This document shows, in pieces, positions 14,470 to 17,855 of a DNA stretch of 64,000 bases. This stretch comes from Arthrobacter sp. (lineage in GTDB: Bacteria > Actinomycetota > Actinomycetes > Actinomycetales > Micrococcaceae), in the NCBI GenBank assembly GCA_026393275.1, contig JAPLAM010000045.1, positions 74,795 through 138,794 on the forward strand, written 5' to 3'. Below the pieces are notes generated by a model. The model saw nothing but the letters and a program-made list of their open reading frames with translations. It ran no database searches and had not been told where the DNA came from. Within the stretch, counting starts at the first letter, position 1. Each line of letters opens with the position of its first letter. A program made the position numbers and the translations under genes.

Positions 14470-14656
14470 GTGGGGTTACCGGTCTCCGGACGAGGCTTAC
14501 ACGGGTCTTGTCTGCCGGCCCTGGTATGTGACGATGACCCGCGCATGTGCATTACTTTACCGTCCGGACTTGAACTGCCGGGAACCACCACCCGGCTATA
14601 CTCCACGCGCCGGTGCGGGCGGCGGTACAAGGTGGTCGGGGGGCGGGCATGAAAAT

Positions 14657-14740
14657 GGTGCCGAACCGGATACGCCTCTCGGCGGTAGGCCGCTCTAGGC
14701 GGCTAATTGTTGAAGCCCGGGGGTTTCGCGGTTCGGCACC
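14657..14740. ncRNA. Candidate structured non-coding RNA (strand unresolved)
   Basis: Perfect 12-bp helix GGTGCCGAACCG/CGGTTCGGCACC enclosing three hairpins; promoter-like elements on both sides. Confidence 0.5.
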
Positions 14741-14803
14741 GCCTTTAGTTTTCTACGTCGGCGGGACCAAGTCAACATTGACAGTGGGGGCCCGGCGTGC
14801 GTC

Positions 14804-14832
14804 TTGACAGCACCGAAAAGCCGCGCTAAATT
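14804..14832 (+). promoter_or_regulatory. Near-consensus sigmaA promoter TTGACA-N17-TAAATT facing the 3' end of the minus-strand hypothetical gene
   Basis: Direct motif match. Confidence 0.5.
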
Positions 14833-14882: not shown

Positions 14883-15539
14883 TTAGTCCAGTTCGCCCAG
14901 CCGCCACGCGTTGGCGGCGTGTTCAAGGTCCTCGGCGGTCTTAACCAGCAGGTGGGAATTCCGCGTCAGCTTGCTGGCATGGTTTTCGTTGCTGTGCTCC
15001 GCGCTGTCGGCAAGCGTGGCCTGGCCCAGTGCGACCACCCGGCAGAACGCGGCCGAGCGCTCCAGCGCGACGTCGAATTCGCCGTCGAACGCCCCGGAGA
15101 GGATGGCGTCCGCCATCGACTTCATTTCCTCGGCGCCCGGAGGCTCGGCCGCGCCGGCCACCACGTGGGACACCTGGGCGGTGTCCTTGCCCGCCCTGAA
15201 GTAGACCGAGATCCTCTCGGGGTCCCGGATCGCCGCGGCGCGCAGGGCGTATAGCCGCCAGAGGGCGCCAGGGAGGGACCGCGCCGGGCTCTCCGCCCAC
15301 ATTTCCGCGATGGCGTCGAGGCCTTGTTCATCGGCGAGTTTGACCAGCCGCCGGGTGACCTTGGGGTCGTCGCTGTCCCTGCCGCGGCGCACGAGCGCCT
15401 GCGCCGCGAGGTGCGCGGCCTCGGACACCCGCGCCGGATCTGCCCCGCCGGCGAACGGTTCGAAGTCGAGCGGCGCGAAGGGCTTCGGCTTATGGTGTCG
15501 GTGCGGTCCCGGGCTGCTGGCTCCTGCTTGCTCGTTCAT
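14883..15539 (-). CDS. Hypothetical protein (218 aa, helical)
   Basis: Coding-like composition; leaderless start TAGCGT-N6-ATG. Confidence 0.8.
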   Translation of the reverse strand: MNEQAGASSPGPHRHHKPKPFAPLDFEPFAGGADPARVSEAAHLAAQALVRRGRDSDDPKVTRRLVKLADEQGLDAIAEMWAESPARSLPGALWRLYALRAAAIRDPERISVYFRAGKDTAQVSHVVAGAAEPPGAEEMKSMADAILSGAFDGEFDVALERSAAFCRVVALGQATLADSAEHSNENHASKLTRNSHLLVKTAEDLEHAANAWRLGELD

Positions 15540-15764: not shown

Positions 15765-15837
15765 GGGCCTTTAGCTCAGTTGGTAGAGCATCGGACTTTT
15801 AATCCGTGGGTCGTGGGTTCGATCCCCACAGGGCCCA
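15765..15837 (+). tRNA. tRNA-Lys (anticodon UUU), CCA not encoded
   Basis: Acceptor GGGCCTT/AGGGCCC, D-arm GCTCAGTTGGTAGAGC, anticodon loop CTTTTAA, T-arm GTGGG-TTCGATC-CCCAC. Confidence 0.97.
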
Positions 15838-15856
15838 CTCTTTTAGCGAAGAGTGG

Positions 15857-15899
15857 AAAAACCCCTGGCATCCTGGCGACAGGAAGCCAGGGGTTTTTT
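15857..15899 (+). terminator. Intrinsic terminator after tRNA-Lys
   Basis: AAAAACCCCTGGC...GCCAGGGGTTTTTT with inner TCCTG-GCGA-CAGGA. Confidence 0.85.
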
Positions 15900-15980
15900 G
15901 GCGTCACGGTGCAGGTTTCGCCGGCCGGGTTCCTGCAGAAAGCATGATGGCCTAGTTATCAGCCGGGCTAGTATTGTCGA

Positions 15981-16484
15981 ATGAACTCGGACAGCGCGGC
16001 AGGCTCGGGGTACTGGTATGGCCTGGAGGGCCGGCTGGATCCTCCGTCGGCCGTGTTGAGCGCCCTGAGGGGCTATCGGGCCGCCGAGGTCGCCACCAGG
16101 CGCTCCACCCGGGACTCCATGGGCATGGGGGAGACCGACCTGCTGGCGCTGCGGTTCCTGCTGCGCGCCCAGTCGGCGGGGGAGCGGGTGGGCCCCAAGG
16201 ACTTGAGCCGAAGCCTGGGGATCACCACGGCTTCCACCACCTCGCTGATCGACCGGCTCGTGGGCAGCGGCCACGTACGCCGTGAGCCGCACCCCACCGA
16301 CCGGCGCTCCCTGGTGATCGTTCCCACCGCCGTCACCGACTCGGAAGTCCGGGCCACGCTTGGCGACATGCACCAGCGGATGCTTGCGGTGGCCGGAGGG
16401 CTCAGTGCCGAGGAAAGCCGCATCGTCGTGGGATTCCTGCACCGCATGACGGAAGCCCTGGACGGACACACGGAACACCTCTAA
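15981..16484 (+). CDS. MarR-family transcriptional regulator
   Basis: 'LGITTASTTSLIDRL..SGHVRREPHPTDRRS'; leaderless TAGTAT-N6-ATG. Confidence 0.92.
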   Translation: MNSDSAAGSGYWYGLEGRLDPPSAVLSALRGYRAAEVATRRSTRDSMGMGETDLLALRFLLRAQSAGERVGPKDLSRSLGITTASTTSLIDRLVGSGHVRREPHPTDRRSLVIVPTAVTDSEVRATLGDMHQRMLAVAGGLSAEESRIVVGFLHRMTEALDGHTEHL

Positions 16485-16531
16485 ACCGAACATCATCCGG
16501 ACGAGACCGCCGGACGGGACCGCCAGGCGAG

Positions 16532-16620: not shown

Positions 16621-16923
16621 GTGGCTGAATTGTTGACGATCACCGGAACCCCGGGATGCGGTGCAGCACCGCTGGCTGCGCACCGGAGCCCGGCAATGCA
16701 AGGCACCGTAGCTCCCGCGCTGCCCCTGGACCCGGCCGGCCAGGCGCCCCGCCACTGCGGCACCCCGATGCGATGGACTGCCCCGGTTCTTGACGCCATG
16801 GCGGCCTACTCCTTCGACACCGGCAGCGGCCCAGCCAAACTTCCGCCTGTGTGGCGCTGCTCCTGTGGGTTCCAGCTCGACGGCATCGTCCACACGCCCA
16901 ACTCGCTGGCCGCGCTTTCGTGA
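16621..16923 (+). CDS. Small Cys/His (Zn-ribbon-like) protein
   Basis: GGAGGAG SD before GTG; HCGTPM and WRCSCGF knuckles. Confidence 0.7.
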   Translation: MAELLTITGTPGCGAAPLAAHRSPAMQGTVAPALPLDPAGQAPRHCGTPMRWTAPVLDAMAAYSFDTGSGPAKLPPVWRCSCGFQLDGIVHTPNSLAALS

Positions 16924-17855
16924 GGGTGGCGCCCGCGTCCGCTGTGCCCCGGCCCGCCGGTGCGTCATCCCGCCCCGGCACCGTAACCGCCGGGGCCGGC
17001 CTCAAGGCCATAACTTTGCCCCTGCCTGACGCCCCCGGCGGCCGCTTCCAGGTGCACGAGCTGCTGGGAAGGGGTGCTACCGCCACCGTTTTCCGCGGTA
17101 CGGACCTGGTCAACGACCGCCCGGTCGCCATCAAGGTGGCCGAAGGTCCGTCCGAGAAGGACGCCAGCCGGATCTACGCCGAGGCGCGGGTCCTCGCTTC
17201 CTTGAATCACCCGGCAGTTGTCGGTTTCGTTGCCGCGGGCACCGTCCCAGGCAACGGCCCGTGGGCGGGCCGGCCGTTCCTGGTTGAGGAATTTGCCTAC
17301 GGCGGGAGCCTGGCAGAGCGGATCCGCGGCGGCGCCTCCGGCTCGGAGGAGGTGGCGGGCTGGGGCGCCGCCGCCCTGTCCGGCCTTAGGCACGTCCACG
17401 AGCGCGGACTGATCCACCGCGACATCAAGCCGGCAAACATCCTGCTCAGTGCGCTCCGGAGATCCCCGGTGCGGCTCGCCGACTTTGGGATCGCCACTCC
17501 TGCCGGTACGGCGCCGGAACCCGGCGAGTCGTCGGGCACCGTGCACTACATGAGCCCGGAGCAGGCGGCCGGGCGGCCCCTGCAGGCATCTACCGATATT
17601 TATGCGCTGGGATTGGTGCTGCTCGAATGCCTCACCGGCGTGAAGGCCTACCCCGGGACGCCCGTCGAATCGCTTGTGGCCCGCACGCTGCGGGGCCCGG
17701 ACATCCCCGCTCAGCTGAGCGCCGGCTGGGTGTCGTTGCTGACGGCCATGACGGCGATGGATCCCGAGGCGCGGCCGCCGGCCGCCGCGGCACACAAGCT
17801 CGTCGCGAGGCTCCCTTCCGCCCGGACGCTGCCCCCGCTCCGCCTGGTCGGCTGA
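16920..17855 (+). CDS. Soluble Hanks-type Ser/Thr protein kinase
   Basis: GRGATATV, VAIK, HRDIKPAN, DFG, GTVHYMSPEQ, DIYALG; GTGA overlap with upstream stop; no TM seen. Confidence 0.93.
   Translation: MRVAPASAVPRPAGASSRPGTVTAGAGLKAITLPLPDAPGGRFQVHELLGRGATATVFRGTDLVNDRPVAIKVAEGPSEKDASRIYAEARVLASLNHPAVVGFVAAGTVPGNGPWAGRPFLVEEFAYGGSLAERIRGGASGSEEVAGWGAAALSGLRHVHERGLIHRDIKPANILLSALRRSPVRLADFGIATPAGTAPEPGESSGTVHYMSPEQAAGRPLQASTDIYALGLVLLECLTGVKAYPGTPVESLVARTLRGPDIPAQLSAGWVSLLTAMTAMDPEARPPAAAAHKLVARLPSARTLPPLRLVG

What the first reader, a model, noticed from the sequence alone, without database searches (positions are those of the whole stretch)
14597..14785. Candidate unannotated structured ncRNA (84-nt four-way junction) between DUF47 and a hypothetical gene
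Seen: perfect 12-bp helix (14657-14668/14729-14740) enclosing three hairpins: CGCC-GAGA-GGCG (GNRA loop on minus), GCCGC-N5-GCGGC, and GAAGCC-CGGG-GGTTTC. Minus-strand reading: TTGACT(14775-14770)-N17-AAAACT puts the TSS at 14740, the first base of the helix, using the local N6 rule, and the helix is followed by AUUUU, giving an RNA of about 89 nt. Plus-strand reading: several G-U wobbles fit better and TATACT lies at 14597-14602. The pit operon has its own TAAAGT box at 14554-14559, so the element need not be its leader. It does not match tRNA, SRP, 6C or hammerhead cores by eye. Function unknown; an RNA-polymerase-binding RNA (as Ms1 is in other Actinobacteria) or a cis regulator of Pi uptake are both speculative options.
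Basis: partly seen in the sequence, partly recalled or inferred. Interest (0 to 1): 0.72.

Follow-up and report, generated by a model that had tools for sequence, protein, structure and literature searches.

The report
Conserved actinomycete small structured RNA gene
The flagged intergenic element is a real, free-standing gene for a roughly 90-nt folded RNA on the minus strand; it belongs to a family present in over half of sampled Actinomycetes genomes, is missing from Rfam, and has no known function.

Summary
A perfect 12-bp helix (14657-14668/14729-14740) encloses conserved hairpins and folds far better than shuffles. It is not a local oddity. A covariance model built from it hits 173 of 301 genomes of the class, nearly always once per genome, and none of about 186 genomes from other classes of the phylum. 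Hits include Streptomyces, Nocardia, Microbacterium, Cellulomonas and Rhodococcus plasmids.

Covariation is strong: 96.8% of cells paired, 19 of 24 pairs with compensatory changes, 0 of 500 shuffles as good. G·U outnumbers A·C by 187 to 14, so the RNA is on the window's minus strand. The supported fold is a three-way junction (P1, P2, P3) plus an invariant C-rich joining strand.

The RNA has its own promoter. Here it is sigma-A-like. In about a third of relatives it is a SigH/SigR-type GGAAT-N18-GTT motif, often followed by a separate terminator. It is not a pit leader, an ORF, a tRNA or any Rfam family.

By position and size it is very probably the family of Streptomyces sRNA scr2952 (84 nt, beside SCO2952), whose function is unknown. 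My best guess is a trans-acting, usually stress-induced RNA that works as a folded particle.

The parts
14657..14740 (-). Structured core of the sRNA (84 nt). RNA position 1 is 14740 and position 84 is 14657.
   Evidence: R1 covariance model scores 104.6 bits, E = 4e-19. Conserved exactly over these bounds in other families of the order. Covariation.
14729..14740 (-). P1 5' arm (GGUGCCGAACCG). It pairs with 14657-14668.
   Evidence: Every P1 pair shows compensatory changes across 66 sequences. Within the genus, variants on this arm give G·U pairs only when read on the minus strand.
14657..14668 (-). P1 3' arm (CGGUUCGGCACC).
14726..14728 (-). Bulged C (14728) and the P1b 5' half GA (14727-14726). 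GA pairs with UC at 14670-14669.
   Evidence: P1b pair across 142 sequences: GC 57, CG 55, AU 7. Helix 2.
14704..14725 (-). J1/2: joining strand AACCCCCGGGCUUCAACAAUUA. It holds the near-invariant C-rich core CCCCGGGYYCCA followed by a variable 4-6 nt linker. It can form at most a weak 3-4 bp mini-hairpin.
   Evidence: The core columns CCCC, GG and CA are over 97% identical in 142 sequences. Folds of the isolated segment give only -2 to -8 kcal/mol and no covariation.
14689..14703 (-). P2 hairpin, GCCGC-CUAGA-GCGGC (family consensus GYCGC-YNNGA-GCGRC).
   Evidence: Second pair CG 84 / UA 53; third pair CG 139 / GC 2.
14673..14684 (-). P3 hairpin, CGCC-GAGA-GGCG, with a GNGA tetraloop (GAGA, GUGA or GCGA in the family).
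   Evidence: Basal pair CG 110 / UG 28 / UA 3; inner pairs invariant.
14651..14656 (-). AUUUUC tract directly after P1. Probable 3' end or terminator tail in this genus.
   Evidence: ATTTTC or ATTTTT in all 25 genomes of the genus. Conservation fades a few bases beyond it.
14747..14752 (-). -10 box AAAACT (Micrococcaceae consensus nAnAnT).
   Evidence: Conserved as AAAACT, AACACT, AAGACT, AAAATT or GATAAT, 17-18 nt after TTGAC(A/T), in Micrococcaceae loci while the spacer varies. It fails the simple TATAAT scan (3 of 6 matches).
14770..14775 (-). -35 box TTGACT.
   Evidence: Invariant TTGAC(T/A) in the same-genus genomes and in other Micrococcaceae.
14771..14782 (.). Palindrome GTCAA-CA-TTGAC overlapping the -35 box. 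Possible operator.
   Evidence: Both arms are invariant in the genus while the central 2 nt vary (CA, TC, CG).
14883..15539 (-). p218: conserved 218-aa acidic, all-helical hypothetical protein. It is the recurrent neighbour of the RNA.
   Evidence: Adjacent in 69 of 142 loci: 62 upstream on the same strand, 6 convergent, 1 divergent. No Pfam, NCBIfam or PDB match.

Best explanation
Window 14741 to about 14650, minus strand, is a free-standing gene for a small RNA of about 87-90 nt.

Shown:
- The RNA folds into a three-way junction. P1 has 12 bp, a bulged C and 2 more bp. P2 has 5 bp and a YNNGA loop. P3 has 4 bp and a GNGA tetraloop.
- A roughly 20-nt joining strand carries an almost invariant C-rich core (CCCCGGGYYCCA).
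- The family is single-copy in most genomes and is found in about 57% of sampled genomes of the class Actinomycetes. It was not found in other classes of the phylum.
- Copies also occur on Rhodococcus plasmids.
- It is absent from Rfam 15.

Inferred from conserved sequence patterns:
- The RNA has its own promoter. In Micrococcaceae this is sigma-A-like (TTGACT-N17-AAAACT, start about 14740).
- Elsewhere the promoter is often ECF SigH/SigR-type (GGAAT-N18-GTT). In much of the class the RNA would then be induced by thiol-oxidative or heat stress.
- Transcription ends at the U-tract after P1 in this genus. In other lineages it ends at a separate terminator hairpin 5-25 nt downstream.

Inferred from position and size only: it is the same family as Streptomyces sRNA scr2952, which is 84 nt, lies between SCO2951 and SCO2952, and was seen by RNA-seq in three Streptomyces species.

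Mechanism (inference, about 45% of my belief): it acts in trans as a compact folded particle. P2, P3, their loops and the junction strand form a fixed surface recognised by a conserved cellular partner, either a protein or another macromolecule. P1 only closes the fold. This would explain why P1 covaries freely while the inner pairs of P2 and P3 and the loops are frozen across the whole class. The partner is unknown.
For: - Real fold: z = -4.3/-4.4.
- Single copy in the own genome.
- Conserved in all 24 other genomes of the genus, and in 6 other families of the order exactly over 14657-14740.
- Class sample 173/301. Phylum sample gives 0 hits outside the class. Named hosts.
- Covariation: 96.8% of cells paired, 19/24 pairs with changes on both sides, 0/500 shuffles, slid controls about 35%.
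- Strand: G·U 187 against A·C 14.
- Promoters: conserved boxes with a variable spacer in Micrococcaceae. GGAA[TC]-N16-19-GTT lies within 45 nt upstream in 48/142 loci, against 0.11% of random windows.
- Separate terminators with a U-rich tail in 48/141 loci.
- Plasmid copies carry the same promoter and terminator module.
- Not cis-regulatory: downstream genes vary.
- scr2952 locus: Moody et al. 2013 supplement lists scr2952 at 3208719-3208802, 84 nt, between sco2951 and sco2952, conserved as sar5126 and svr2719 (PMC3765725). The Streptomyces homologues found here lie next to a HelD-like helicase with murA about 2.7 kb away. SCO2952 and SVEN_2719 are HelD homologues (PMC10719064).
- Frozen inner pairs of P2/P3 against a variable P1.
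Against: - No transcript evidence for this genome.
- The -10 box here is weak (AAAACT) and fails the simple sigma-70 scan.
- Identity with scr2952 rests on synteny and length, not sequence. One paper says scr2952 is in Rfam (PMC8388888), yet Rfam 15 gives no hit on the Streptomyces loci.
- No partner was identified. The syntenic protein p218 is acidic (median pI 5.3), is absent from more than half of the RNA-bearing genomes, and has no recognisable fold.
- The invariant C-rich strand fits a base-pairing seed equally well.
Confidence: 0.6

Rival explanations
1. It is a base-pairing sRNA. The junction is only a stable scaffold, and the invariant unpaired C-rich strand (CCCC...UCCCA) is a seed that pairs with G-rich Shine-Dalgarno regions of several mRNAs. 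This would repress translation under stress without Hfq, as 6C RNA does in Actinobacteria.
For: J1/2 is the longest invariant stretch and is predicted largely unpaired. The gene is trans-encoded with its own promoter and terminator, and many promoters are stress-sigma type. From my own knowledge, not tested here: C-rich loops are the known seed type in high-GC Gram-positive bacteria (6C) and in S. aureus Rsa RNAs.
Against: Seed-type sRNAs rarely keep stems and loops invariant across a whole class, but here the inner pairs of P2/P3 and both loops are 99-100% fixed. The central GGG of the strand can pair with the flanking Cs. A crude scan of the own genome for 11-mers complementary to J1/2 gave only scattered, chance-level hits. 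No conserved complementary site was seen in front of the neighbouring p218 gene.
Confidence: 0.25
2. It is a cis-acting leader or riboswitch for the downstream gene (here DUF47-pit, phosphate uptake), with P1 plus the U-tract as the switchable terminator.
For: In this genus the RNA lies 188 nt upstream of DUF47-pit on the same strand, and P1 is followed by a U-tract. The pattern of a conserved core with a variable P1 resembles an aptamer. In Pseudonocardia an ORF starts 34 nt after the second tandem copy.
Against: DUF47-pit is downstream in only 7 of 66 loci. Downstream genes differ between lineages. Terminators elsewhere are self-contained hairpins that do not overlap P1. The conserved neighbour lies upstream, not downstream. 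Plasmid copies sit among unrelated genes.
Confidence: 0.05
3. It is a catalytic or small-molecule-binding RNA acting in trans: a new ribozyme or aptamer whose core is formed by the junction, the GNGA loop and the YNNGA loop.
For: It has the conservation signature of functional cores: invariant junction and loop nucleotides with a freely covarying closing helix. A GNRA-type loop is available for tertiary docking. The RNA is short and self-contained, and it is kept on plasmids in several copies.
Against: No match to any ribozyme or riboswitch family in Rfam, even at E <= 10. No hammerhead, twister, pistol or hatchet core seen by eye. No gene association points to a metabolite.
Confidence: 0.1

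Closest known systems
scr2952 of Streptomyces coelicolor (Vockenhuber et al. 2011; Moody et al. 2013, PMC3765725 supplement; homologues sar5126, svr2719)
   Same: Small intergenic RNA of 84 nt next to the HelD-like gene SCO2952. It is conserved in three Streptomyces species and has no conserved ORF. The Streptomyces members of the family found here are 87 nt from P1 to P1 and lie next to the same helicase, near murA.
   Different: Identity was not verified at the sequence level. As far as I could find, scr2952 is described only as an expressed transcript in Streptomyces. I found no published structure, promoter type, distribution outside Streptomyces or function. Rfam 15 has no model that hits it.
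6C RNA (Rfam RF01066)
   Same: An Actinobacteria-wide, trans-encoded, roughly 60-100 nt sRNA with invariant C-rich unpaired nucleotides, working without Hfq.
   Different: 6C has two hairpins with C-rich loops and is driven by SigA/SigB (PMC5014011, abstract listed). This RNA is a three-way junction with the C-rich stretch in a joining strand, plus GNGA and YNNGA loops, and often has an ECF-type promoter. There was no RF01066 hit on the window element. A 17.5-bit chance hit lay beside, not on, the Streptomyces copy.
ECF sigma-dependent sRNAs of enterobacteria (RybB, MicA, MicL)
   Same: Small RNA genes placed directly behind a stress ECF-sigma promoter and followed by their own terminator.
   Different: No sequence or structural relation. 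Those are Hfq-dependent seed RNAs with little conserved structure. This comparison rests on my own knowledge and on scan note e1-5246421.
Protein-binding structured sRNAs (bacterial Y RNA, 6S, Ms1)
   Same: Free-standing, highly structured RNAs whose conserved surface, not a seed, carries the function. Y RNAs also keep synteny with a partner gene.
   Different: No Ro/Rsr gene next to the RNA. There is no long rod with a central bubble (6S/Ms1 are 180-300 nt). No Rfam hit. The syntenic protein here is acidic and of unknown fold.

Membership tests
scr2952 (Streptomyces sRNA) | Lies in the intergenic region flanking SCO2952 (HelD-like helicase), near SCO2949-2951. | tested here: met
   In 21 Streptomyces/Kitasatospora loci the model hit lies 60-150 nt from a 773-aa HelD-like ORF (17 tandem, 4 convergent), with murA about 2.7 kb away. 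scr2952 is listed between sco2951 and sco2952.
scr2952 (Streptomyces sRNA) | Transcript of about 84 nt. | tested here: met
   P1-to-P1 length is 87 nt in Streptomyces and 84 nt in the window, against 84 nt in Moody et al..
scr2952 (Streptomyces sRNA) | Sequence identity with S. coelicolor 3208719-3208802, + strand. | not testable with these tools
The Vockenhuber 2011 paper is not held.
Any Rfam 15 family | Score at or above the family's gathering threshold. | tested here: not met
   The only window hit is the tRNA at 15765-15837. At E <= 10 there are only two chance hits under 15 bits. No hits on five homologous loci.
tRNA / tmRNA-like | Cloverleaf recognised by ARAGORN. | tested here: not met
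   ARAGORN finds only tRNA-Lys at 15765-15838.
Riboswitch / cis-regulatory leader | Consistent position in the 5' UTR of functionally related genes. | tested here: not met
   Downstream genes vary. The conserved neighbour is upstream. Independent terminators follow the RNA.
Small protein-coding ORF (52-64 aa, + strand) | Open frame and codon-patterned conservation in relatives. | tested here: not met
   CTA-TAA is in frame in L025, L027, L029, L032 and L033. Substitutions follow helix pairing, not codons.
6S / Ms1 RNAP-binding RNAs | Rod-like hairpin of 180-300 nt with a central bubble; RNAP co-purification. | tested here: not met
   The architecture is an 84-nt three-way junction. RNAP binding is not testable here.
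SigH/SigR (ECF) regulon member | GGAAT-N18-GTT promoter at the correct distance from the start. | tested here: inconclusive
   Met in 48/142 relatives, including Streptomyces, Nocardia, Microbacterium, Kribbella and Rhodococcus plasmids. Not met in the window itself, whose promoter is TTGACT-N17-AAAACT. No expression data.

The most novel reading that the evidence does not exclude
This may be a previously unmodelled RNA class specific to the class Actinomycetes, with a new three-way-junction fold whose frozen loops and C-rich junction strand form the binding or catalytic core of a stress-induced ribonucleoprotein, aptamer or ribozyme. It would be wired into the SigH/SigR thiol-stress regulon and spread onto Rhodococcus megaplasmids. 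On this reading it is neither a seed-type sRNA nor a riboswitch, and it would be a new functional RNA on the scale of 6C or Ms1.
Probability: 0.35. Interest if true: 0.85.

Novelty: new member of a known kind. Interest (0 to 1): 0.72.

Why it matters
Few structured RNAs are conserved across all of Actinomycetes, the class that holds Streptomyces, Nocardia and the mycobacterial relatives. Those that are known (6C, Ms1, SRP, RNase P, tmRNA) each opened a field. This RNA is as widespread as those in the sampled genomes, has unusually clean covariation, and is absent from Rfam, so it goes unannotated in thousands of genomes.

In many lineages it sits behind a SigH/SigR-type promoter. It could therefore be a missing RNA arm of the thiol-oxidative and heat-stress response. 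That is directly testable in sigR or sigH mutants of laboratory Streptomyces or Corynebacterium/Mycolicibacterium strains.

An immediate practical gain is a covariance model, with the likely link to scr2952, that lets existing Streptomyces RNA-seq and Northern data be reused for the whole class.

Tried and rejected
- Rfam at gathering and at E <= 10, on the window and on Streptomyces, Nocardia and Pseudonocardia loci: nothing. A guess that RF02832 was Scr2952 was wrong; it is Scr5676.
- ARAGORN: no tRNA-like gene.
- Repeat or mobile element: single copy in the own genome. No phage hits.
- Small ORF: in-frame stops.
- Plus-strand RNA: rejected by the G·U against A·C asymmetry.
- pit leader: rejected by synteny.
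- p218 as a clue to function: no Pfam, NCBIfam or PDB sequence match. The AlphaFold model (pLDDT 80, all-helical) has no Foldseek match at E <= 0.001. The protein is acidic and has no profile similarity to the Streptomyces HelD neighbour.
- HelD in the window: absent.
- Seed-target idea: 11-mer complementarity scan of the own genome and inspection of p218 leaders were uninformative.
- Literature: Vockenhuber 2011 and Heueis 2014 are not held. Nothing relevant in RIViT-seq or in the 50-genomes ncRNA survey that included S. avermitilis.
- Pfam of neighbours in a Mycobacteriales locus (AccD-like, HTH, ParA/MinD-like, EVE, pirin) gave no theme.

Full report
**1. The observation**

- A perfect 12-bp inverted repeat, 14657-14668 with 14729-14740.
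- Inside it, CGCC-N4-GGCG at 14673-14684, GCCGC-N5-GCGGC at 14689-14703, and GAAGCC-CGGG-GGTTTC at 14711-14726.
- On the minus strand, TTGACT (14775-14770), a 17-nt spacer, AAAACT (14752-14747), and AUUUUC directly after the helix (14656-14651).

The 101-nt stretch folds much better than dinucleotide shuffles on either strand, with z about -4.3 to -4.4 and 0 of 200 shuffles as good. It is single-copy in its 3.96-Mb genome, so it is not a repeat element.

**2. It is conserved far beyond the genus**

BLAST of the intergenic region against relatives found one copy in each of the other 24 genomes of the genus, at 85-96% identity over window 14644-14802. It also found copies in six other families of the order at 73-80% identity. 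Those more distant matches end exactly at the bounds of the helix, 14657-14740.

A covariance model was built from 12 sequences (R1). It gave these results:
- It hit 173 of 301 genomes sampled across the class (91 of 150 genera), almost always once per genome.
- A phylum-wide sample of 200 genomes gave hits only in genomes of the same class, and none in about 186 genomes of other classes.
- An exact-pattern scan of named genomes found the RNA in Streptomyces, Kitasatospora, Nocardia, Pseudonocardia, Kribbella, Nocardioides, Aeromicrobium, Cellulomonas, Microbacterium, Clavibacter, Leifsonia, Brevibacterium, Rothia, Sinomonas, Modestobacter and others.
- Protein names place the window itself in Pseudarthrobacter/Arthrobacter (Micrococcaceae).

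**3. Structure and strand**

On the 66-sequence model alignment, 96.8% of cells form standard pairs. Nineteen of 24 pairs carry changes on both sides. None of 500 shuffles reaches any of the five measures, and sliding the 3' partners drops pairing to about 35%.

An independent MAFFT alignment of 142 distinct sequences shows the same pattern:
- P1 covaries at every position. One example pair reads CG 48, GC 36, AU 24, GU 20.
- A 2-bp extension beyond a bulged C covaries as GC 57, CG 55, AU 7.
- P2 shows CG 84 / UA 53 and CG 139 / GC 2.
- P3 shows CG 110 / UG 28 / UA 3 at its base.

Across the 20 pairs there are 187 G·U cells and only 14 A·C cells. A G·U pair on one strand is an A·C mismatch on the other, so the RNA is read from the window's minus strand. 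The same conclusion holds within the genus. Every variant in the outer helix sits on the minus-strand 5' arm and gives G·U or U·G pairs.

On the minus strand it has an A·C mismatch. Across the family this segment is an almost invariant C-rich strand (CCCCGGGYYCCA) that forms at most a weak 3-4 bp mini-hairpin without covariation.

The supported model is therefore a three-way junction of P1/P1b, P2 (loop YNNGA) and P3 (loop GNGA), plus a conserved roughly 20-nt J1/2 strand. For the window sequence this structure costs -39.1 kcal/mol, against an MFE of -42.0 kcal/mol.

**4. It is not coding, not a tRNA and not a known family**

- The plus-strand ORF has an in-frame TAA in five species of the genus.
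- ARAGORN finds only the tRNA-Lys at 15765-15838.
- Rfam 15 gives nothing at gathering thresholds, and only chance hits under 15 bits at E <= 10.
- Streptomyces, Nocardia and Pseudonocardia homologues also have no Rfam hit.

**5. It is a free-standing gene**

Within Micrococcaceae the conservation pattern on the minus strand is that of a promoter. There is an invariant TTGAC(T/A), then 17-18 variable bases, then nAnAnT (AAAACT, AACACT, AAGACT, AAAATT or GATAAT), then 6-7 bases, then P1. The simple sigma-70 scan does not score this weak -10 box, so the promoter call rests on conservation.

After P1, all same-genus genomes have AUUUU(U/C), and conservation then fades.

In other lineages the upstream motif is different and striking. 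GGAA(T/C)-N16-19-GTT ends 4-13 nt before P1 in 48 of 142 loci, against 0.11% of random 45-nt windows from the same loci. It is nearly invariant in Streptomyces as GGGAAT-N19-GTTAGCCTGG. This is the SigH/SigR-type ECF promoter consensus; that assignment rests on established knowledge of those regulons and on PMC10012870 and PMC3489674 as listed.

A self-contained terminator hairpin with a U-rich tail follows, at a median of about 10 nt, in 48 of 141 loci. Further hairpins without a U-tail are also visible.

**6. Gene neighbourhood**

DUF47-pit lies downstream only in the window's own family, in 7 of 66 loci. The element is therefore not a phosphate-uptake leader.

The recurrent neighbour is the 218-aa "hypothetical" gene at 14883-15539, here called p218.
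- It is adjacent in 69 of 142 loci. It is usually upstream on the same strand, but convergent in six loci and divergent in one.
- Its profile is found in 76 of 301 class genomes. From the per-genome tables, 74 of those 76 also carry the RNA, while the RNA occurs in 173.
- p218 is therefore nested inside the RNA's distribution and cannot be a universal partner.
- It has no Pfam, NCBIfam or PDB relative.
- A confident all-helical AlphaFold model (pLDDT 80) has no Foldseek match.
- It is acidic, with a median pI of 5.3.

In Streptomyces and Kitasatospora the neighbour is instead a 773-aa HelD-like helicase, tandem in 17 loci and convergent in 4, with murA about 2.7 kb away. p218 and this helicase are unrelated.

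Full-length copies also sit on Rhodococcus plasmids, in 29 records with up to five places per record. Each of the two copies examined in detail has a GGAATA-N16/17-GTTG motif and its own terminator. These plasmid copies lie next to varied genes: Rep, mihF and lsr2, DNA ligase, and a GAF-ANTAR gene.

**7. Link to the literature**

Moody et al. 2013 (PMC3765725, supplementary file 1) list the sRNA scr2952 between sco2951 and sco2952, on the plus strand at 3208719-3208802. It is 84 nt and was first reported by Vockenhuber et al. 2011. It is conserved as sar5126 and svr2719 and has no conserved short ORF. SCO2952 and SVEN_2719 are HelD homologues (PMC10719064). PMC8388888 states that scr2952 expression was confirmed.

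Position and size match the Streptomyces members of the family found here, which are 87 nt from P1 to P1. I could not check sequence identity. One inconsistency remains: PMC8388888 says scr2952 is in Rfam, but Rfam 15 has no family that hits these loci.

This agrees with what I saw independently in Pseudonocardia. It is an AI note, not independent evidence.

**8. How it most likely works**

Shown: a structured RNA with class-wide conservation, read from the minus strand, standing alone in the genome.

Inferred from sequence patterns: its own promoter, stress-sigma control in many lineages, and its 3' end.

Inferred without a direct test: the mode of action.
- The contrast between a freely covarying P1 and inner P2/P3 pairs, loops and junction strand that are 97-100% fixed is the signature of RNAs that act through a folded surface. 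Examples are protein- or ligand-binding RNAs and ribozymes. I put this first, at about 45%.
- A 6C-like C-rich seed mechanism is second, at about 25%.
- A trans-acting aptamer or ribozyme gets about 10%.
- A cis-acting leader is nearly excluded, at about 5%.

**9. Verdict**

The finding is real and more significant than a local curiosity. The window holds the Micrococcaceae member of an Actinomycetes-wide small structured RNA family that no Rfam 15 model detects. It was probably first seen as scr2952 in Streptomyces, and its function is unknown.

Noticed in passing
window 14771-14782: The palindrome GTCAA-NN-TTGAC overlaps the -35 box of the sRNA promoter. Both arms are invariant in all genomes of the genus while the central two bases vary. 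It looks like an operator for a dimeric regulator, or like back-to-back -35 boxes.
   Followed up: partly
window 14804-14832 (+) and 14837-14821 (-): A plus-strand promoter-like site, TTGACA-17-TAAATT (10 of 12 matches), points into the 3' end of the p218 gene as a possible antisense start. A terminator-like hairpin on the minus strand just after the p218 stop codon is probably the p218 terminator. Neither lies within the block conserved across the genus.
   Followed up: no
window 14883-15539 (-): p218 is a well-conserved acidic, all-helical protein family of about 200 aa. It has invariant W81, R161 and F165 and a nearly invariant AEPPGP-like stretch. It has no Pfam, NCBIfam, PDB or Foldseek relative. 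Some UniRef entries label it 'DNA-directed RNA polymerase subunit beta' or 'histone acetyltransferase'. It is present in 76/301 class genomes.
   Followed up: partly
L123:5449-5708 (Pseudonocardia yuanmonensis): Two tandem copies of the RNA, each behind its own GGAAT-N18-GTT motif. The first carries an insertion of about 25 nt in the P2 region. An 86-aa ORF starts 34 nt after the second copy.
   Followed up: partly
L233, L234, L235-L238 (Rhodococcus plasmids): The sRNA gene is carried on large Rhodococcus plasmids, in 29 records with up to 5 places in pRB98. In two plasmids it lies between mihF and lsr2. In others it lies beside a DNA ligase or directly after a Rep gene. These are neighbourhoods of nucleoid and DNA-metabolism genes.
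   Followed up: partly
L047, L051, L053, L062, L070, L107, L186, L172 (upstream of the RNA): In several lineages a short conserved hairpin with a UUCG-type loop (for example GGCGACAGCCUUCGGGCCCUCGC) lies between the promoter-like -10 box and P1. Those RNAs would then carry an extra 5' stem-loop.
   Followed up: no
L090:2501-2606, L098:2501-2612: Two family members carry insertions of 15-25 nt at P2. One is a partial duplication of the P2 hairpin. P2 therefore tolerates expansion.
   Followed up: no
window 15843-16496 (-), 16851-17855 (+): Pfam finds no domain in the 217-aa ORF at 15843-16496, which another first-stage note calls a leaderless marR. The ORF at 16851-17855 is a Ser/Thr protein kinase.
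   Followed up: no
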